64,000 nucleotides of DNA from Felixounavirus LF110P4 (OZ035790.1); one strand, 5' to 3'. Counted from the first letter of the stretch, positions 5,316 through 64,000 are shown. The notes: generated by a model from the sequence alone, not told the origin. A program made the numbers and translations.

Positions 5316-5693
5316 ATGGCATATCAAGGTTTTACTAAGTTAGGTAACAGAGAACCTCTGAATGATATCATTCTTTGGGAACAGATTACCCCAACAGGCC
5401 ACTCTCGTAAAGAGTACACTCCAGTTGCTTCAACAGAATACCGTGTAGGTGAAGTTCTGAAAGCAGATGGTACTAAGGTACAAGCTGGAGAAGAAGCCCA
5501 AGCAGACTCTGTATGTATCGTTAATTTCTACGCAGACCTGCAACTGTCTTATCATGGTCAGTTGAAAGTGGTAGGTATCCACCGTGATGCAGAACTAAAA
5601 GACCTGCTGACTCTTGAATCAAGCGTTAATGCTGATGAAGTCAAGAAAGCTTTGGCTGCTAAAGGTATCGATTTCGTACCAACTGGCCTGTAA
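5316..5693 (+). CDS. putative head decoration protein
   Basis: 125 aa ORF between protease and major capsid gene (lambda C-D-E-like order); optimal-codon-rich. Confidence 0.4.
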   Translation: MAYQGFTKLGNREPLNDIILWEQITPTGHSRKEYTPVASTEYRVGEVLKADGTKVQAGEEAQADSVCIVNFYADLQLSYHGQLKVVGIHRDAELKDLLTLESSVNADEVKKALAAKGIDFVPTGL

Positions 5694-5726
5694 TAACAAT
5701 AATAAGACCTTCTGGAGAATTTTACA

Positions 5727-6833
5727 ATGTTGACTAATTCTGAAAAAAGCAGATTTTTCCTTGCTGACCTGACTGGTGAAGTCCAGTCTATCCCAAATAC
5801 TTATGGGTATATTTCCAACTTAGGTCTGTTCCGTTCAGCACCAATCACCCAAACGACTTTCCTTATGGACTTGACTGATTGGGATGTTAGCTTGCTTGAT
5901 GCGGTAGACCGTGATAGCCGTAAAGCAGAGACTAGCGCACCTGAGCGTGTTCGTCAAATTAGCTTCCCAATGATGTATTTCAAAGAAGTTGAAAGCATCA
6001 CTCCTGATGAGATTCAGGGTGTACGTCAGCCAGGCACTGCAAACGAACTGACTACTGAAGCTGTAGTACGTGCTAAGAAGCTGATGAAGATTCGTACCAA
6101 GTTCGATATTACTCGTGAGTTCCTGTTTATGCAAGCTCTGAAGGGTAAAGTTGTCGATGCTCGTGGTACTCTGTACGCTGACCTGTACAAGCAGTTCGAC
6201 GTTGAGAAGAAGACTGTTTACTTCGACCTTGACAATCCTAATGCTGACATCGATGCTTCTATCGAAGAACTGCGTATGCACATGGAAGACGAAGCTAAGA
6301 CTGGCACTGTAATCAACGGTGAAGAAATTCACGTAGTTGTTGACCGTGTATTCTTCAGCAAACTGGTTAAGCATCCTAAGATTCGTGACGCTTATCTTGC
6401 ACAGCAGACTCCACTGGCTTGGCAACAGATTACTGGTTCTCTGAGAACTGGTGGTACTGACGGCGTTCAGGCTCATATGAACACCTTCTACTACGGTGGT
6501 GTTAAGTTTGTCCAGTACAACGGTAAGTTCAAAGACAAGCGTGGTAAGGTTCACACTCTGGTGAGCATTGATAGTGTAGCAGCAACTGTTGGTGTTGGTC
6601 ATGCCTTCCCTAACGTATCTATGCTGGGTGAAGCTAACAACATCTTCGAAGTGGCATATGGCCCATGTCCTAAGATGGGTTATGCAAATACACTTGGTCA
6701 GGAACTGTACGTATTCGAATACGAAAAAGACCGTGACGAAGGTATTGACTTCGAAGCTCACTCTTACATGCTGCCATACTGCACTCGTCCTCAGTTGCTG
6801 GTAGATGTTCGCGCTGACGCTAAAGGTGGCTAA
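5727..6833 (+). CDS. major capsid protein
   Basis: 368 aa ORF after protease and decoration genes; strongly biased codon usage (CTG, CGT, GGT, AAC) suggests high expression; synteny. Confidence 0.7.
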   Translation: MLTNSEKSRFFLADLTGEVQSIPNTYGYISNLGLFRSAPITQTTFLMDLTDWDVSLLDAVDRDSRKAETSAPERVRQISFPMMYFKEVESITPDEIQGVRQPGTANELTTEAVVRAKKLMKIRTKFDITREFLFMQALKGKVVDARGTLYADLYKQFDVEKKTVYFDLDNPNADIDASIEELRMHMEDEAKTGTVINGEEIHVVVDRVFFSKLVKHPKIRDAYLAQQTPLAWQQITGSLRTGGTDGVQAHMNTFYYGGVKFVQYNGKFKDKRGKVHTLVSIDSVAATVGVGHAFPNVSMLGEANNIFEVAYGPCPKMGYANTLGQELYVFEYEKDRDEGIDFEAHSYMLPYCTRPQLLVDVRADAKGG

Positions 6834-26710: not shown

Positions 26711-27094
26711 TCAGATACCTGTGCAGCTTCTGTTTTCTAAGAAATACTCAACACCATACATGGCTTTTTGCATCAAATCTTCTTTAAACTGAATACGATG
26801 ATTGAGCATAGTTTGTACATCAATATCGTCATGGTGTTTCTCTTTAATATTTGCAGATTGTAGGAAATACTCTGCAAGAACACGATACTGATAGTCAGTT
26901 ACCTTATCAGTCATCTCTGTTAAAGACTCTTCAGAGATTGGTTTCAGTAGCTCACCATTAGCTAGAGCAACACCTTTTACAATCTGGCAAGTATCTTCTG
27001 GAACACCTGACAAGTCCACATTTGGGAGTTCTGTTGCATTGACTGGTAAATTCATTGCCATAACCATTGCAGCAGCTAATAAAATCTTTTTCAT
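26711..27094 (-). CDS. secreted (periplasmic) protein of unknown function
   Basis: 127 aa; N-terminal Sec signal peptide MKKILLAAAMVMAMNLPVNA; has its own promoter. Confidence 0.55.
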   Translation of the reverse strand: MKKILLAAAMVMAMNLPVNATELPNVDLSGVPEDTCQIVKGVALANGELLKPISEESLTEMTDKVTDYQYRVLAEYFLQSANIKEKHHDDIDVQTMLNHRIQFKEDLMQKAMYGVEYFLENRSCTGI

Positions 27095-29069: not shown

Positions 29070-30173
29070 TTATTCATAATCTCGTATAATGAGACCAACA
29101 GGGAACTGTAAAGAACCCTTACGAGTCATCTTCTGGAACTGAACCGTTAAAGGTTTCCCGATAAACTCTTCAGGATGCTCAGCAAGATACTGTTTCTTCT
29201 CATGAGTAGTCTTCCATGAGACATCTACAAAGACGTTAGGAAGAGTCTCTACAACGAACTTACCATGACCACGTTTATCAGTCTTTACACCAGTAACTTT
29301 AAACTCTTCAGTGTGCATCTTCTTGTGCTTAATCAAGAAGTATGAACGGTGGCCACACTCATAGAAAGATTCTTCAGAGATTGAACGGTACATTGCACCT
29401 TCAAACTTAGCTTCAACCCACTTATCATGAGCTTCATCAAATTCTTCCCAAGAATTTACACGACGAGACTTAACAGGAATAACTTTACAGCCATCTCTGA
29501 AGTCATTCAATGGTGAAGTCTCAATAATATCTCTACGCTCAGGCCACGTCTTAGTGCTGTCACAGATATCGTACCAGTAAAACTTGAGTAAATGTCGGTC
29601 AGGATTGTCTTCATTTTTAATCATGGAGACAATATCTTCTAAGTCCAACCCGTGAGCATAGATTTCACCATCAAATTCATCAACGTCTTTATGGAGCCTC
29701 AACATTGCCATAATGTCAGGTATTAGCTCAGTAGGAATTTTATAAATAGTGTTCTCACGAGAATATGCTGTAAATACGCTGCCAATACTTAAGTGTCTTG
29801 AAATTCTACAACGGACACCATCAAGTTTTGGTTGAGCATCAGCAGGGAACTTCAGATACTTTGCATGGCTAACCTTTGCAGCATCATGAGCAAGCTGTAC
29901 ACCTACCTTCTCAGTATTCTGTGCAGACTCTTTTGTGTAAGAATAACCTTTGCGGTCAACTTGCTTTTTATACTTAGCAGCAACTTCAAAGAGGGCTTGC
30001 TGTTCAGTGTTACGCTCATTCTTTTTACCGATGTTTTTAGGTTCTGCTGTATACTCTTCAAACATCATCTTGCCATTTTCTTTACCGTAGGTTGTAATAA
30101 CTTTGTCACCTACAGCAACGCATGACCAGACGTTGAAGGAACCGTCTTTATTTTGTTTGTACAGAATTGTCAT
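29070..30173 (-). CDS. ATP-dependent DNA ligase
   Basis: adenylation motif KLDGVR; ATG at 30173 with gaggt RBS (track ORF extends to 30209). Confidence 0.85.
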   Translation of the reverse strand: MTILYKQNKDGSFNVWSCVAVGDKVITTYGKENGKMMFEEYTAEPKNIGKKNERNTEQQALFEVAAKYKKQVDRKGYSYTKESAQNTEKVGVQLAHDAAKVSHAKYLKFPADAQPKLDGVRCRISRHLSIGSVFTAYSRENTIYKIPTELIPDIMAMLRLHKDVDEFDGEIYAHGLDLEDIVSMIKNEDNPDRHLLKFYWYDICDSTKTWPERRDIIETSPLNDFRDGCKVIPVKSRRVNSWEEFDEAHDKWVEAKFEGAMYRSISEESFYECGHRSYFLIKHKKMHTEEFKVTGVKTDKRGHGKFVVETLPNVFVDVSWKTTHEKKQYLAEHPEEFIGKPLTVQFQKMTRKGSLQFPVGLIIRDYE

Positions 30174-30366
30174 TTTTAACCTCTGAGTGATACCAAGTGT
30201 CACAAGCATTACATGCGTAAAGCTCTAAGTCGTTTTTATCTGGTTTATGGAAACAGTTTGACCCACAACGACACCGGAATAACTTACCATCAACACGAAG
30301 AATGAATGTTTCAAGCTCACCATCTTCTGTAAGAACTGCGTTCTTAAATTTATCTTCTACAGTCAT
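30148..30366 (-). CDS. small zinc-ribbon protein
   Basis: 72 aa with CRCGSNC ... CNACD cysteine pairs. Confidence 0.4.
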   Translation of the reverse strand: MTVEDKFKNAVLTEDGELETFILRVDGKLFRCRCGSNCFHKPDKNDLELYACNACDTWYHSEVKNDNSVQTK

Positions 30367-30579: not shown

Positions 30580-30837
30580 TCACTCAATAACAGTAGTGTG
30601 TGATTGACCATTTTTGCCATAGCTATAAGATGTTGTTGTTTGAGAGTTTGGACACCTGACAACAACAATGTCTCTGCTTATGGCATCACCATGTAACTTA
30701 TAGACTCTGCAATCTTGCATCTCTGGTGGGAGGCTATAAGAAGCGTTTTTGTCCTCGTAAGAGGGATTACAGCCAGATAGAAAAATTACTCCAAGTGCAA
30801 CCATTGCTTTCACACAACTCTCAACCTTATTGTTCAC
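30580..30837 (-). CDS. small lipoprotein
   Basis: 85 aa; signal peptide with lipobox LSGC; GTG start preceded by gagagg RBS. Confidence 0.5.
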   Translation of the reverse strand: MNNKVESCVKAMVALGVIFLSGCNPSYEDKNASYSLPPEMQDCRVYKLHGDAISRDIVVVRCPNSQTTTSYSYGKNGQSHTTVIE

Positions 30838-30969
30838 GATAGTCTACCTCTCTGTATGTTTTTAAATAGTGAGTGATGAGTTCTGGTAATTCACTACGTT
30901 TAACGTTTGAACGAAGAAGTGTCCAGTCAAAACCTTTACCAACCCTTCCCCAGAGACTGTACATTTTCT

Positions 30970-31445: not shown

Positions 31446-31961
31446 TCAACTTAGTTTTGCAAACTCTCCGTGGAGTTTCACAGCAGCTTCACAGTAAGCT
31501 TTATGGGCTTCTTCTTCCGTTGTGTATGTCCCTATATGTATAGTCTTGCCATTATGGTTAATCTGGGCTATCCACTTACCAGACTTGCTTCTACTTGTGC
31601 CTTTTAAGTTTTTTGATGTTCTAGGTTGTCTCCTGTTAGACATGTTCTGTTCTTTTGTGGCCTCTCTTAGATTGTCCCAAGCATTATTCAAACCATCTCC
31701 ATCTTTGTGGTCAATATGTTTATCAGGCCACTTACCTGTCATCCAGAACCAAGCAATTCGGTGATTACCTGTCCTGTACCCTAAAATCTGTGTGTGCATA
31801 TACACACCAGACCTTGTGCGCTTAATTGCTCCAGCTTGGCTTCCAATAACCACCCTACTACTATGTGGAGGTCTGCCAATCCATGTTAAGACCCCTGTTT
31901 CGGGGTCATAATCTAACCAAGACTTTAACTGTTCATGTGTGAATCCACAATCTCTCATCAA
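31446..31961 (-). CDS. HNH homing endonuclease with AP2 DNA-binding domain
   Basis: HNH_3-like IDHKDGDGLNNAWDNLR plus AP2-like GTSRSKSGKWIAQINHNGKTIHIGTYTTEEEA; overlaps DNA polymerase gene by 4 nt. Confidence 0.8.
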   Translation of the reverse strand: MMRDCGFTHEQLKSWLDYDPETGVLTWIGRPPHSSRVVIGSQAGAIKRTRSGVYMHTQILGYRTGNHRIAWFWMTGKWPDKHIDHKDGDGLNNAWDNLREATKEQNMSNRRQPRTSKNLKGTSRSKSGKWIAQINHNGKTIHIGTYTTEEEAHKAYCEAAVKLHGEFAKLS

Positions 31962-34657
31962 TGCACCTCATACCAGCTCTTACCAACCTTACCTGTGCCA
32001 GTTACAAGTGTCTCACTCTTCAAACCTAAATTCTTAGATGCCTGACCATACATCCAGTCAGTTATGGCTTTAACTTCTTGAGTCATACTTTCTGGGCATT
32101 CCCAACTGTTTTCATCGTGGTATGCCAGCAAAAGCCTAGCACCAATTGCTGGTTTTCGTCCATTTAATTTTGTCAGTCCTTCTTCACATGCTCTTCTACA
32201 AGCAAGGTTAATTGCCTCATTTTGAATCTGAGCCTCCGAACCCATAAGCAAATAATTCAATAACTTATGTGGAGATTTGCACCACAACCAAGCTCCAGCA
32301 ACTTTTACAAAGCCCCCTTTAGAGATTGCAGCAGTCTTACCAAACACCTCTTCAAGTGCCTTTTTAGTTGCTTTGTAGTCAGCTTCCAAATCATCCAGCA
32401 ACTTCTTAATTTTAGGCAAACGGATAAAGTAAGTCTGCTTAGTCAGTGCACCTTCCTGAGTAGTTGCAGCTTTAATCGTCTTAGCAAACTTCTCATCACC
32501 TGCACCGAACAGCAGTGCATAGATACCGTTCTTAGCTTTCTTACGACCTTTGCTAATCTCATGAAGAAGGTTCTCATCCTGAGTAGCTCGACAAGTCAAG
32601 ATGTCCTGCTCATCGTTCAAGCTAAAGTAAATACTGTTCAGTGTATGTGCATCAGTCCCTGAATAGACAACGTACAGGTCATTCTCAGAGTCATAGCGAA
32701 GGTACTTATCAATCTCTGGGTTGAGGTACTCATCAAAGTGTTTGCAGTAATAGCGTCTATCTTCTTGACGAATAAACTCAATCTCTTCTTTACCTTGCGT
32801 TACCGCTTTGGTGAAGTCTTTGTCACCCATAAAGTTACAAAGGAGGACTAGCTGGGCTGAGTTCATGTCTACAGAGACAACGTTAGTACCTTCTTCACAA
32901 ATCCACACTGCCCTCATTGGTTCCCCATAGACAGCAGCACCAGACGGTACGTTTACAATACCGTACTGTGTCATACGTCCAGTTGAAGTACCAAACACCA
33001 TTGCACCAGCACTAAGGCGACCATCTGGACGAATCTGGTTCAACCAACCTTTTTCATCATCCTTTGAGTTCTCAATAGTTCTGCGTCGGTGCATCAAAGT
33101 GTAGTATTTAGCAATCTTCTGTCCAAGCTCACCTTCAATCGTATCGTAAGATGATTCAGTAAGTTTTGGTGAAGTACGGATTAAGCAAGGCTCAAGCAAA
33201 TCTGTGTACTTCTTCACAGACCAGTTATGCTCAATGTACTGGACGCCTTCGTGTTCAACATAACTCAAACCACACCGCTCAACCATTTCCTGCCACTTAG
33301 GATGCTTTGTAATCATCTTTTTATTGTCTTTGAAACGACAAACTTTGACAGGGCGACCATCAGAGTCTTTCTTGTAGTTCCAGTCATCTGGAATCCAACC
33401 AACTGATTTCAAGTAGTCTTTAACAACTGCTACCTGAGTCATACGAGAAACTTCAAACTCAATTGGTGTATATGGTGCATCAATCAAACCTGTGTAGCGA
33501 CTTGACTCAAGTTCAAAGTGGTTAACAACGTGGCTGTTATAGTACTTCACAGTTTTGACTGTTTTTACTGGCTTCCAGTCTTTGCATTTCTTACCAATCT
33601 TTGCGTTCAACTCATTGCAAATTGCACGAGCATCCTTCATTGCTACAAAGCCTTCCTTGTACTCTTCACCAGTTACAGTGTTGGTTGGTGTATAGCAATT
33701 CCTTTTTTCAATGTTAAAAATCTTTGTAGTTGGCTTACCAAATGGTTTGATTTCGTATGTCTGCATCTCGCCATTACGTACCTGCTGACGATACTTTGTC
33801 TTAGGGTACTTGGTAATTCTTTTCAGTCCATCTGCATGACCAAATGTTTCAACATACTCATTCCAAGCTTTTGCAAACTCTTCTCCAGTGACTTTACCTT
33901 TGGTCTTAATAGTTGGAGGTAGATGCGGTTCAACTTCTGAAGCAAGTTCATTAGTCAACTTGTCAAGTTCCTTTACATGGAACTCCATAAGCTCTTTATC
34001 AGCTTTCCAACCATTGATAGCCTGTTGACTCATCCAGAAAGATGTTTCTTTAGCTCGCATGTAAGTTTCATAAGTGTCTATACCACACTTCTTAAGCTTG
34101 AGATACTCGTTATCAAGTGCCCGTTTAGTTTTGGCGTTAATACGGATATCTTCTACAACACGAGTGAAGATTTCTGCATTCCACACACCCCAATGCTCAA
34201 TCTCTGGCTTACGAACACCAACACGAGCACCCCATGCAGCCAAACCATGAGCACCTTTATAACCCTTTGGAGTTGGTCTATCCATCCACTGAACACGAGA
34301 CTGGATAAGAGAATCCTGAAAGTAATTACTCCACGGTTTACACTTTGGGTTATCAAAGTTCCATAAATCAGGTGCAATGTGATTAAAAACCCACCAGTCA
34401 TAACCGAGACCGTTATGGATGCAAAGACGTTTTGCCTTTAACGCAAATTCAACACCTTCACGTAAACCACCCTTAATGTACTTGGTATACTTGTGACCGA
34501 GGATAGGTTCATCTGTAAAGACCCATACAGGTGGCTCTTCATCGTCAGATTTATAGTCTGCGAAAGCCATTACGTGCACTTTAGTGAACTCAAGGAGTAA
34601 ACCATCAGTTTCTGTATCACCAACTAAATGTAAGTTTTTAAAATCTACGTTTTCCAT
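31958..34657 (-). CDS. DNA polymerase, family A, with 3'-5' exonuclease domain
   Basis: ExoI DTETDG; motif A DMNSAQL; motif B KNGIYALLFGAG; motif C YHDE; ATG at 34657 with agagggag RBS (track ORF extends to 34687). Confidence 0.9.
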   Translation of the reverse strand: MENVDFKNLHLVGDTETDGLLLEFTKVHVMAFADYKSDDEEPPVWVFTDEPILGHKYTKYIKGGLREGVEFALKAKRLCIHNGLGYDWWVFNHIAPDLWNFDNPKCKPWSNYFQDSLIQSRVQWMDRPTPKGYKGAHGLAAWGARVGVRKPEIEHWGVWNAEIFTRVVEDIRINAKTKRALDNEYLKLKKCGIDTYETYMRAKETSFWMSQQAINGWKADKELMEFHVKELDKLTNELASEVEPHLPPTIKTKGKVTGEEFAKAWNEYVETFGHADGLKRITKYPKTKYRQQVRNGEMQTYEIKPFGKPTTKIFNIEKRNCYTPTNTVTGEEYKEGFVAMKDARAICNELNAKIGKKCKDWKPVKTVKTVKYYNSHVVNHFELESSRYTGLIDAPYTPIEFEVSRMTQVAVVKDYLKSVGWIPDDWNYKKDSDGRPVKVCRFKDNKKMITKHPKWQEMVERCGLSYVEHEGVQYIEHNWSVKKYTDLLEPCLIRTSPKLTESSYDTIEGELGQKIAKYYTLMHRRRTIENSKDDEKGWLNQIRPDGRLSAGAMVFGTSTGRMTQYGIVNVPSGAAVYGEPMRAVWICEEGTNVVSVDMNSAQLVLLCNFMGDKDFTKAVTQGKEEIEFIRQEDRRYYCKHFDEYLNPEIDKYLRYDSENDLYVVYSGTDAHTLNSIYFSLNDEQDILTCRATQDENLLHEISKGRKKAKNGIYALLFGAGDEKFAKTIKAATTQEGALTKQTYFIRLPKIKKLLDDLEADYKATKKALEEVFGKTAAISKGGFVKVAGAWLWCKSPHKLLNYLLMGSEAQIQNEAINLACRRACEEGLTKLNGRKPAIGARLLLAYHDENSWECPESMTQEVKAITDWMYGQASKNLGLKSETLVTGTGKVGKSWYEVH

Positions 34658-34687
34658 TTTTACTCCCTCTAAAATCATTAACCTCAT

Positions 34688-63888: not shown

Positions 63889-64000
63889 ATGACATTTAAA
63901 GAGTTCTGTCAAGCTACTTTCATAATTGTTTTCTTAGTTGGGGCAGGTGTCTGGGGAGGATACTCTTACAGAGACTACCAAGTTGCTGAAACTGAGCTAA
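63889..64000 (+). CDS. hypothetical membrane protein, 5' fragment truncated by window end
   Basis: ATG 63889 after aggag RBS; hydrophobic N-terminus; no stop before window end. Confidence 0.4.
   Translation, partial: MTFKEFCQATFIIVFLVGAGVWGGYSYRDYQVAETEL

What the first reader, a model, noticed from the sequence alone, without database searches (positions are those of the whole stretch)
30580..30837. Small phage-encoded lipoprotein: candidate superinfection-exclusion or receptor-masking factor
The 85-aa ORF has a lipoprotein signal peptide with lipobox LSGC, giving a mature product of about 62 residues with two further cysteines. Phage lipoproteins of this size, such as T5 Llp, block the phage's own receptor. 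It starts at a GTG with a good RBS.
Basis: inference. Interest (0 to 1): 0.45.

Follow-up and report, generated by a model that had tools for sequence, protein, structure and literature searches.

The report
Conserved small phage lipoprotein, function unknown
A Felix O1-like phage carries a real, strongly conserved gene for a tiny membrane-anchored lipoprotein from a large uncharacterised phage family (DUF4884); it is unrelated to the known receptor-blocking lipoproteins, so what it does in the infected cell's envelope is still untested.

Summary
Window 30580..30837 (minus strand) encodes an 85-aa precursor with a lipoprotein signal peptide, lipobox LSGC (Cys23) and a 63-residue mature part with two more cysteines.

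The window is a Felixounavirus. The gene is the orthologue of Felix01p170 and is annotated only as "hypothetical protein".

It is a real gene: dN/dS is 0.01-0.28 among Ounavirinae. It belongs to a large family (PHROG 902; Pfam DUF4884 in precomputed tables; 1,190 clusters at 50% identity). In this family the lipobox Cys, the two further Cys and a CP motif are invariant or nearly so.

The Llp-like reading is not supported:
- There is no sequence or fold similarity to Llp, Rtp45, Spackle or anything else in the PDB.
- The gene lies in the replication operon, not beside a receptor-binding gene.
- Felixounaviruses bind LPS core, not an outer-membrane protein.
- Homologues in other E. coli phages carry inner-membrane retention signals (CDQ, CDA).

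It is not the o-spanin, which lies elsewhere.

Best guess (about 0.35): a periplasmic accessory factor that binds a conserved envelope component or the penetration machinery of incoming phages. This would be exclusion after adsorption, not receptor masking. The function is untested. Interest is moderate.

The parts
30580..30837 (-). Whole ORF: 85-aa lipoprotein precursor, stop codon included. Orthologue of Felix O1 Felix01p170.
   Evidence: ORF list and sequence. Annotated as an 85-aa hypothetical protein in Si3. Notes in UAB_Phi87 and ASO1A name Felix01p170. PHROG 902, E=1.1e-16. dN/dS 0.01-0.28.
30847..30852 (-). Shine-Dalgarno-like GAGAGG, 9 nt upstream of GTG 30837.
   Evidence: Read from the sequence. 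The duplex with the 16S 3' end is -7.8 kcal/mol, the best of the three candidate starts.
30772..30837 (-). Signal peptide, residues 1-22. The n-region MNNKVESCVK carries K4 and K10; the h-region is AMVALGVIF.
   Evidence: PS51257-type rule met. Aligns with the signal peptides of all homologues.
30811..30813 (-). Alternative start GTG (V9), giving a 77-aa precursor MKAMVALGVIFLSGC.... It matches the start position used by most orthologues.
   Evidence: 5' alignment of orthologues: ATG with AGGAGA or GAGAGG in JH2 and the Moogleviruses, and an in-frame TGA upstream in HP1. This start also passes the lipoprotein rule. Its SD is weaker, -4.2 kcal/mol.
30769..30780 (-). Lipobox L20-S21-G22-C23. Cys23 is the predicted diacylglyceryl and N-acyl attachment site.
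   Evidence: The Cys is invariant in alignments A1, A2 and A3. 215 of 227 members have a strict lipobox and the other 12 have a small residue before a Cys at the same place.
30583..30771 (-). Mature lipoprotein, 63 residues. Asn at +2 predicts outer-membrane sorting. A variable tether of about 10 residues is followed by a compact beta-rich domain.
   Evidence: AF2 models have pLDDT 69-70 and five strands. Conserved positions are Y34, L36-P37, C43, Y46, V59, C62-P63, Y71 and G74-K75.
30709..30711 (-). Cys43 codon, first of the two conserved non-lipid cysteines (presumed disulfide partner).
   Evidence: Invariant in 84- and 150-sequence alignments. 187 of 215 members have exactly three Cys in the mature part.
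30652..30654 (-). Cys62 codon, within the motif V-V-R-C-P-N-S; second conserved cysteine.
   Evidence: Invariant Cys, followed by a near-invariant Pro. A CP dipeptide is present in the mature part of 208 of 215 members.

Best explanation
SHOWN. This is a genuine protein-coding gene of a Felix O1-like virulent phage. It lies in the run of tightly packed minus-strand genes from DNA polymerase to DNA ligase. Its product has every sequence feature of a bacterial lipoprotein precursor. It belongs to a very large family of 75-150-aa lipoproteins that is essentially phage-borne (PHROG 902; DUF4884 in precomputed Pfam tables). Members occur in Ounavirinae, Vequintavirinae, jumbo myoviruses, Aeromonas Straboviridae and phages of Vibrio and Acinetobacter.

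INFERRED FROM ESTABLISHED LIPOPROTEIN BIOLOGY. The precursor is exported by Sec. It is lipidated at Cys23 by Lgt, LspA and Lnt. [quoted passage not shown] A small beta-rich domain then hangs in the periplasm on a tether of about 10 residues, locked by a C43-C62 disulfide made by DsbA.

INFERRED, MY BEST GUESS. It is an accessory envelope factor made with the replication genes. It binds something conserved in the periplasm. That could be a host envelope component, or the cell-wall and membrane penetration machinery of an incoming phage. The effect would be to protect the infected cell, for example exclusion after adsorption in the manner of T4 Spackle, TP-J34 Ltp or the plasmid entry-exclusion lipoproteins. 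It would not act by masking the phage's own receptor.

HOW LIKELY. About 0.9 that it is a real lipoprotein of this family. About 0.35 that the function is envelope-level exclusion or protection of this kind.
For: Identity of the window: 92-96% nucleotide identity to Felixounaviruses.

Real gene: pN about 0.1 where synonymous sites are saturated, and dN/dS 0.01-0.28.

Lipoprotein: the PS51257 rule is met here and in 212 of 227 homologues. 14 of 84 members hit Pfam LPAM_1. UniRef labels several homologues 'Lipoprotein'.

Family size and spread:
- 587 phage records by tblastn.
- 1,190 clusters at E<=1e-3, all 71-154 aa.
- BFVD fold matches are only to family members in Yersinia, Vibrio, Aeromonas and Acinetobacter phages.

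A conserved target rather than a variable receptor:
- The mature protein is about 76-92% identical across Salmonella, E. coli and Citrobacter Ounavirinae.
- The motifs YxLP..(D)C and CPxx.T...GK persist across hosts from Vibrio to Paraburkholderia.

A target reachable from either membrane: CN in Felix-likes, but CDQ, CDA and CDG in rV5-like, jumbo and Certrevirus phages of enterobacteria.

Expression with the replication genes: genes overlap or abut, and there is no terminator-like site on the minus strand in the run from the polymerase stop to the ligase (the only minus-strand one lies inside the pol gene). In ASO1A the annotated promoter lies upstream of pol and the terminator after ligase.

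Envelope clustering: in several other phages the gene sits among small membrane proteins or next to another lipoprotein.
Against: There is no functional evidence of any kind. Every database name is 'hypothetical protein' or an automatic 'Lipoprotein'.

No fold or sequence link exists to any characterised exclusion protein.

No partner gene is conserved across phage lineages.

The AF2 model is only moderately confident (pLDDT 70, pTM 0.46), so the negative fold searches are soft.

Early or middle timing is inferred from gene order, not measured.

The Asp+2 rule is established for Enterobacteriaceae, but it was not tested for these proteins.
Confidence: 0.35

Rival explanations
1. Llp/Cor/Rtp45-type receptor masking. 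The outer-membrane lipoprotein would bind the periplasmic face of the phage's own receptor protein. That would change its surface loops so that sister phages cannot adsorb to infected cells or to debris.
For: Its size, predicted outer-membrane location (Asn +2) and likely early or middle expression resemble Llp. Llp, Cor and Rtp45 share no common sequence family either, so lack of homology is not fatal (PMC12685063).
Against: - Felixounaviruses adsorb to LPS core, and no protein receptor is known (PMC13196588).
- Complete masking of abundant glycan receptors during a lytic cycle is considered futile (PMC11990801).
- The gene is not next to tail-fibre or RBP genes; it lies inside the replication module.
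- Relatives in E. coli phages carry inner-membrane retention signals.
- The family spans phages with very different receptors.
- There is no PDB sequence or fold match.
Confidence: 0.08
2. Host-takeover or anti-defence factor. The lipoprotein would inhibit a conserved host periplasmic enzyme or envelope system. Candidates include a protease, a peptidoglycan hydrolase, vesiculation, or an envelope-anchored abortive-infection sensor. This would keep the infected cell intact and productive, with no role in excluding other phages.
For: The same facts apply as for the best explanation:
- Conserved motifs across distant hosts.
- Either-membrane anchoring.
- Strong purifying selection.
- Co-expression with replication genes.
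- A wide spread in large virulent phages rich in takeover genes.
Against: There is no similarity to known periplasmic inhibitor folds such as Ivy, MliC/PliC or Spackle. There is no PADLOC or NCBIfam hit beyond signal-peptide noise. No host target is suggested by any result.
Confidence: 0.25
3. Lysis function. It would be the outer-membrane spanin subunit, or a lipoprotein regulator of lysis timing.
For: O-spanins are small outer-membrane lipoproteins, often with conserved Cys (PMC6139136). The phage has rIIA and rIIB.
Against: - Felix O1-like phages already have an overlapped i/o-spanin pair elsewhere: Felix01 5330-5841, with o-spanin MKRLSQSFIMFVLLIIMSGC... (PMC6139136 supplement).
- The i-spanin starts at window 63889, 33 kb away.
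- Neither neighbour of this ORF has a transmembrane segment (read from the translations).
- The lysin gene is about 38 kb away in ASO1A.
- There is no similarity to the Felix o-spanin.
Confidence: 0.05
4. Not a functional gene: a chance ORF with a chance lipobox.
For: A lipobox-like pattern arises by chance about 0.5 times per shuffled window. Two antisense ORFs in the real window also show it.
Against: dN/dS is far below 1. There are hundreds of homologues with invariant Cys, Pro and GK positions in unrelated phage lineages. PHROG 902 matches at E=1e-16.
Confidence: 0.01

Closest known systems
Pfam DUF4884 (PF16225) / PHROG 902: uncharacterised small lipoproteins
   Same: The window protein matches PHROG 902 directly (E=1.1e-16). 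PF16225 is listed in the precomputed tables for the representative of its 90% cluster (P0001) and for nearly every homologue found. Its length, signal peptide, lipobox and three-Cys pattern are typical of the family.
   Different: Nothing distinguishes it from the family. No function is known for any member. A local hmmscan against the Pfam-A copy provided did not return PF16225, so the Pfam label rests on the precomputed tables and on an NCBI product name in a related phage (PMC12210894).
T5 Llp, T1/phi80 Cor and Rtp Rtp45 (superinfection-exclusion lipoproteins that block FhuA or LptD)
   Same: All are small (about 6-7 kDa mature) phage-encoded lipoproteins of virulent phages, predicted to reach the inner leaflet of the outer membrane and made before lysis.
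   Different: There is no sequence or fold relationship. The gene is not adjacent to the RBP gene. The phage's receptor is LPS core, not an outer-membrane protein. Family members elsewhere are predicted to be inner-membrane lipoproteins.
T4 Spackle (periplasmic inhibitor of the gp5 tail lysozyme), TP-J34 Ltp and plasmid entry-exclusion lipoproteins TrbK/EexN
   Same: The resemblance is conceptual only. These are small exported or lipid-anchored proteins that stop DNA entry after adsorption, independent of the receptor. That would fit anchoring to either membrane and a conserved target.
   Different: There is no homology. The only TrbK and EexN matches are sub-threshold and confined to the first ~40 residues (signal peptide and N-terminal tether), and they occur in other family members. 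Spackle is helical and is not a lipoprotein (own knowledge; PMC7677548 is listed). No fold match was found.
Felix O1 o-spanin (JH2 family, Kongari et al. 2018)
   Same: It is another small outer-membrane lipoprotein of the same phage, with conserved cysteines.
   Different: It is a different gene, a different sequence and a different locus, overlapping an i-spanin gene. The ORF studied here has no i-spanin partner.

Membership tests
Bacterial-type lipoprotein precursor (PROSITE PS51257; Lgt/LspA/Lnt substrate) | Positively charged n-region, uncharged hydrophobic h-region, and a lipobox [LVI][ASTVI][GAS]C with the Cys at residue 15-35 | tested here: met
   K4 and K10; h-region AMVALGVIF; LSGC with Cys23. 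The rule passes for starts 30837 and 30813 and fails for ATG 30804.
Bacterial-type lipoprotein precursor (PROSITE PS51257; Lgt/LspA/Lnt substrate) | The signal is conserved in homologues | tested here: met
   212 of 227 pass the rule. The Cys is invariant in A1, A2 and A3.
Bacterial-type lipoprotein precursor (PROSITE PS51257; Lgt/LspA/Lnt substrate) | Actual lipid modification and globomycin-sensitive cleavage | not testable with these tools
   Needs labelling and processing experiments.
DUF4884 (PF16225) / PHROG 902 | Significant match to the family HMM | tested here: met
   PHROG 902: E=1.1e-16 over residues 8-83. Pfam: PF16225 is listed in precomputed tables for the cluster representative and 88 of the 91 homologues. 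A local hmmscan of Pfam-A gave no PF16225 hit, so the Pfam half is inconclusive by my own test.
DUF4884 (PF16225) / PHROG 902 | Family hallmarks seen here: mature part of about 50-140 aa (median 70), three Cys, and the motifs YxLP, DC and CP...GK | tested here: met
   Alignments A1-A3 and the residue statistics.
Llp / Cor / Rtp45 receptor-blocking SE lipoproteins | Sequence or structural homology to a characterised member | tested here: not met
Llp / Cor / Rtp45 receptor-blocking SE lipoproteins | Gene located beside the receptor-binding-protein or central tail-fibre gene | tested here: not met
   The gene lies between DNA polymerase and DNA ligase. Its neighbours are small soluble ORFs and an HNH endonuclease. 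The locus rule comes from PMC11990801.
Llp / Cor / Rtp45 receptor-blocking SE lipoproteins | The phage uses an outer-membrane protein as its terminal receptor | tested here: not met
   From the literature: LPS core is the receptor of Felixounavirus isolates (PMC13196588). This was not tested for this particular phage.
Llp / Cor / Rtp45 receptor-blocking SE lipoproteins | Outer-membrane sorting (no Lol-avoidance signal) | tested here: met
   +2 is Asn in this protein and in all Ounavirinae orthologues. Homologues in other enterobacterial phages have CDQ, CDA or CDG.
Llp / Cor / Rtp45 receptor-blocking SE lipoproteins | Exclusion or adsorption-block phenotype on expression | not testable with these tools
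   Needs plating and adsorption assays.
Two-component spanin, o-subunit | Gene embedded in, overlapping or adjacent to an i-spanin gene (N-terminal TMD plus a periplasmic coiled coil) | tested here: not met
   The upstream 48-aa and downstream 69-aa products have no hydrophobic segment (translations). The real i-spanin starts at window 63889. The Felix01 spanin pair is at 5330-5841.

The most novel reading that the evidence does not exclude
DUF4884 could be a new, very widespread class of phage-encoded periplasmic exclusion or envelope-control lipoproteins. Tethered to either membrane, it would neutralise a conserved step of cell-envelope penetration, such as a tail-tip hydrolase, a channel-forming protein or a host factor needed for DNA transit. 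Infected cells would then become refractory to many unrelated phages, whatever their receptor.
Probability: 0.2. Interest if true: 0.65.

Novelty: new member of a known kind. Interest (0 to 1): 0.35.

Why it matters
Small exported phage proteins are among the least understood parts of phage genomes. The few that have been characterised (Llp, Cor, Rtp45, Spackle) each revealed a distinct way of controlling the cell envelope.

This family stands out for several reasons:
- It is far larger than any of those: at least 1,190 clusters at 50% identity.
- It crosses phage families and host genera.
- It is under strong purifying selection.
- It appears to work from either membrane.

Finding its target would annotate hundreds of 'hypothetical' genes in therapeutic-type phages (Felix O1-like, rV5-like and jumbo phages). 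It could also expose a conserved envelope vulnerability or a receptor-independent exclusion mechanism that matters for designing phage cocktails. As it stands, the finding is an ordinary member of an already catalogued but uncharacterised family.

Tried and rejected
Searches that found nothing useful:
- Pfam-A hmmscan of the protein, close orthologues and all 84 members of A2 gave no family hit. It returned only LPAM_1 in 14 members plus noise.
- NCBIfam and PADLOC gave only sub-threshold matches, those to lipoprotein families confined to the first ~40 residues (TrbK, EexN, LptM), or noise.
- PDB sequence searches with one protein and with a profile gave noise only.
- The afdb50 library was unavailable.
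- The search for related loci on bacterial genomes failed twice because no stretch of the alignment was conserved enough, so chromosomal contexts were not surveyed. The single Paraburkholderia copy lies next to RdgC and Band_7 genes. I read that as likely mobile DNA, which is a guess.
- The promoter and terminator scan showed no enrichment over shuffles.
- Looking for a conserved neighbour across seven phage lineages found none, only a tendency to sit near small membrane proteins.
- Five literature searches found no paper that characterises the family or Felix01p170.

Ideas considered and rejected:
- O-spanin: rejected.
- Colicin-lysis-protein-like: only two of 84 members give weak Lysis_col hits (best E=0.016), presumably in the signal peptide; the mature part is about twice as long (own knowledge of colicin lysis proteins) and carries a conserved Cys pair.

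Caveats on two of my own attempts:
- I tried to estimate how many Felix-like genomes lack the gene from record counts (192 records with the gene DNA against about 257 with the pol segment). I do not trust that figure. One apparently unannotated case, SUT_S720, does carry an intact copy that was simply not called.
I disregard it as unverified.

Full report
1. WHAT IS IN THE SEQUENCE

The finding's coordinates hold an ORF on the minus strand, 30580..30837. It starts at GTG and is 85 aa long:
MNNKVESCVKAMVALGVIFLSGC|NPSYEDKNASYSLPPEMQDCRVYKLHGDAISRDIVVVRCPNSQTTTSYSYGKNGQSHTTVIE.

It has the three parts of a lipoprotein signal peptide: a charged n-region (K4, K10), an uncharged h-region, and the lipobox LSGC with Cys23. 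It passes my implementation of the PROSITE PS51257 rule. The mature part is 63 residues counting the lipid Cys, and it contains two further cysteines (C43, C62).

A GAGAGG lies 9 nt upstream of the GTG. It gives the strongest anti-SD pairing of the three possible starts: -7.8 kcal/mol, against -4.2 and -2.7.

Two qualifications apply:
- The strand is minus.
- The start is not conserved. JH2, HP1 and the Moogleviruses start at an ATG equivalent to codon 8-9, behind AGGAGA or GAGAGG. HP1 has a stop codon in the upstream extension. Annotators have used 74 to 89 aa.

GTG 30813 remains a credible alternative start. The mature protein does not change.

2. IS IT MORE THAN CHANCE?

A lipobox pattern alone is not convincing. 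Shuffled windows yield about 0.5 such ORFs. Two antisense ORFs inside the ribonucleotide reductase gene and the PHROG 3877 gene also match.

Conservation settles the matter.
- Among seven Ounavirinae orthologues, non-synonymous divergence stays near 0.1 while synonymous sites are saturated. Where it can be measured, dN/dS is 0.01-0.28.
- In alignments of 13, 84 and 150 homologues, the lipid Cys and the two other Cys are invariant. P37, P63 and G74-K75 are invariant or nearly so.
- 212 of 227 collected homologues pass the lipoprotein rule as called.
- 187 of 215 have exactly three Cys in the mature part.

3. CONTEXT

The window is a Felix O1-like myovirus, with 92-96% nucleotide identity to Salmonella phages SPT-1 and Si3 and to many E. 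coli and Shigella Felixounaviruses. An identical copy of the gene is in phage VpaE1_ev035.

Record notes identify the gene as the counterpart of Felix01p170. It is 'hypothetical protein' everywhere.

It sits in a run of tightly packed, overlapping minus-strand genes:
- DNA polymerase (31958-34687)
- an HNH homing endonuclease
- three tiny ORFs
- the lipoprotein
- two tiny ORFs
- DNA ligase (29070-30209)

The wider surroundings are replication and nucleotide-metabolism genes: primase/helicase, exonuclease, dNMP kinase, thymidylate synthase and DHFR.

No terminator-like site lies on the minus strand in the run from the polymerase stop to the ligase; the only minus-strand one (34412-34395) falls inside the pol gene. 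In phage ASO1A the annotated promoter lies upstream of pol and the terminator lies after ligase. Co-expression with the replication genes is therefore likely, but it is inferred.

The lysin gene is about 38 kb away in ASO1A.

The phage's spanins are a different gene pair. Kongari et al. place the overlapped i/o-spanins of Felix01 at 5330-5841, with o-spanin MKRLSQSFIMFVLLIIMSGC... (PMC6139136 supplement). The i-spanin begins at window 63889 and is cut by the window's end.

4. THE FAMILY

The protein matches PHROG 902, 'unknown function', at E=1.1e-16.

The large protein collection lists PF16225 (DUF4884) for the representative of its 90% cluster and for nearly every homologue. NCBI uses 'DUF4884 domain-containing protein' for a relative in a Drexlerviridae phage (PMC12210894).

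My own hmmscan against the Pfam-A copy provided never returns PF16225. I could not resolve this discrepancy.

tblastn finds relatives in 587 phage records. These include:
- Ounavirinae
- Certrevirus
- jumbo phages (PBECO4/UB, Serratia BF)
- Aeromonas Straboviridae
- Vibrio phage RYC
- about 295 Vibrio phages of 114 kb
- Acinetobacter Saclayvirus

A further profile search added an Erwinia jumbo phage, pEa_SNUABM_47. A profile search of 1.84 billion cluster representatives finds 1,190 clusters at E<=1e-3 and 668 at E<=1e-10, all 71-154 aa.

Contigs carrying the gene are phage-sized. The one clearly bacterial copy, in Paraburkholderia, lies beside RdgC and Band_7 genes.

5. STRUCTURE

AF2 with 84 and then 150 aligned sequences gives a small domain of five beta strands at pLDDT 69-70. 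The fold searches gave:
- Foldseek against the PDB: nothing below E=2.
- BFVD: only other members of the same family, in Yersinia, Vibrio, Aeromonas and Acinetobacter phages.

Sequence and profile searches of all PDB chains return only noise. That library should include T5 Llp in 8A60 and Rtp45 in 9RPS.

6. WHAT IT PROBABLY DOES

Steps that follow from established lipoprotein biology:
- Sec export.
- Lgt/LspA/Lnt processing at Cys23.
- Lol-dependent transfer to the outer membrane, because +2 is Asn.
- A DsbA-made C43-C62 disulfide.

The function is unknown, and everything beyond this point is inference. Four observations constrain it.

(a) The mature sequence is about 76-92% identical in phages of Salmonella, E. 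coli and Citrobacter. The core motifs persist in phages of Vibrio and Acinetobacter and in a Paraburkholderia genome copy. The target is therefore conserved, not a variable surface receptor.

(b) Within enterobacterial phages the sorting signal differs. It is CN in Felix-likes. It is CDQ in rV5-like phages, which is the classical strong Lol-avoidance signal. It is CDA or CDG in jumbo phages and Certrevirus. The domain therefore seems to work when tethered to either membrane. That argues against obligatory docking beneath an outer-membrane barrel.

(c) The gene is never seen beside receptor-binding genes in the loci inspected. It often lies among small membrane proteins or near another lipoprotein.

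(d) Felixounaviruses use LPS core as their receptor (PMC13196588). Masking abundant glycans during a lytic cycle is thought to be futile (PMC11990801).

My best guess is an accessory periplasmic factor. It would bind a conserved envelope component, or the penetration machinery of incoming phages, and so protect the infected cell. This is exclusion after adsorption, functionally like T4 Spackle, TP-J34 Ltp or the plasmid entry-exclusion lipoproteins.

My probabilities for the readings are:
- Best guess (post-adsorption exclusion or protection): about 0.35.
- Host-takeover or anti-defence inhibitor with no exclusion role: about 0.25.
- Llp-like receptor masking: about 0.08.
- A lysis role: about 0.05.
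- A non-gene: about 0.01.

7. COMPARISON WITH KNOWN SYSTEMS, AND NOVELTY

The ORF is an ordinary member of a catalogued but uncharacterised family (DUF4884 / PHROG 902). It resembles Llp, Cor and Rtp45 only in being a small phage lipoprotein. It fails three of their defining features that could be tested here: homology, locus and receptor type.

The exact protein is already in public databases. I file it as a new member of a known kind.

Interest is moderate at 0.35. Nothing here is surprising. Even so, the family's size, breadth, strong constraint and apparent either-membrane operation make it a worthwhile experimental target. If it proved to be a receptor-independent exclusion system, the interest would be clearly higher (about 0.65, at a probability of about 0.2).

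Noticed in passing
window 63889..64000 (+): The first 37 codons of the Felix O1 i-spanin (p014), at 100% identity, cut off by the end of the window. The overlapping o-spanin, a different lipoprotein, must lie just beyond the window.
   Followed up: partly
window 26711..27094 (-): A 127-aa ORF with a classical Sec signal peptide (MKKILLAAAMVMAMNLPVNA|TE) and two Cys. It matches PHROG 4332, unknown function. It is a second exported protein of this phage, 3.5 kb from the lipoprotein gene, and could be another periplasmic accessory factor.
   Followed up: no
window 31446..31961 (-): An HNH/AP2-type homing endonuclease gene is inserted between DNA polymerase and the run of small ORFs. The polymerase is one intact 909-aa ORF here, but it is annotated in two pieces, or interrupted, in Si3, JH2 and SUT_S720.
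   Followed up: no
window 30580..30837 and all homologues: The precomputed tables assign PF16225 (DUF4884) to nearly every family member. A fresh hmmscan against the Pfam-A copy provided never reports that family, even at E<=10. The model may be missing from the copy, or its version may differ.
   Followed up: partly
L020:8987-9214 (Salmonella phage SUT_S720, OQ871555.1): An intact orthologue, 96% identical and starting MWKAVIALGVVFLSGC, is present but not annotated. Neighbouring CDS calls overlap its position. This is a missed gene call in a public record.
   Followed up: yes
L006:3120-3392 (Escherichia jumbo phage UB): A second, unrelated small predicted lipoprotein (lipobox LTAC, 90 aa, several Cys) lies two genes downstream of that phage's DUF4884 gene.
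   Followed up: no
P0011, P0012 (metagenomic Felix-like contigs): These are frame-shifted 64-aa versions of the lipoprotein gene that lose the C-terminal half, including Cys62. They hint that the gene can be lost without killing the phage, unless they are assembly errors.
   Followed up: no
window 30580..30837 versus Si3 (L001:4582-4839): Synonymous divergence within this gene is high (pS 0.46) with almost no amino-acid change. The surrounding 3 kb is 94.5% identical, so divergence is locally mosaic.
   Followed up: no
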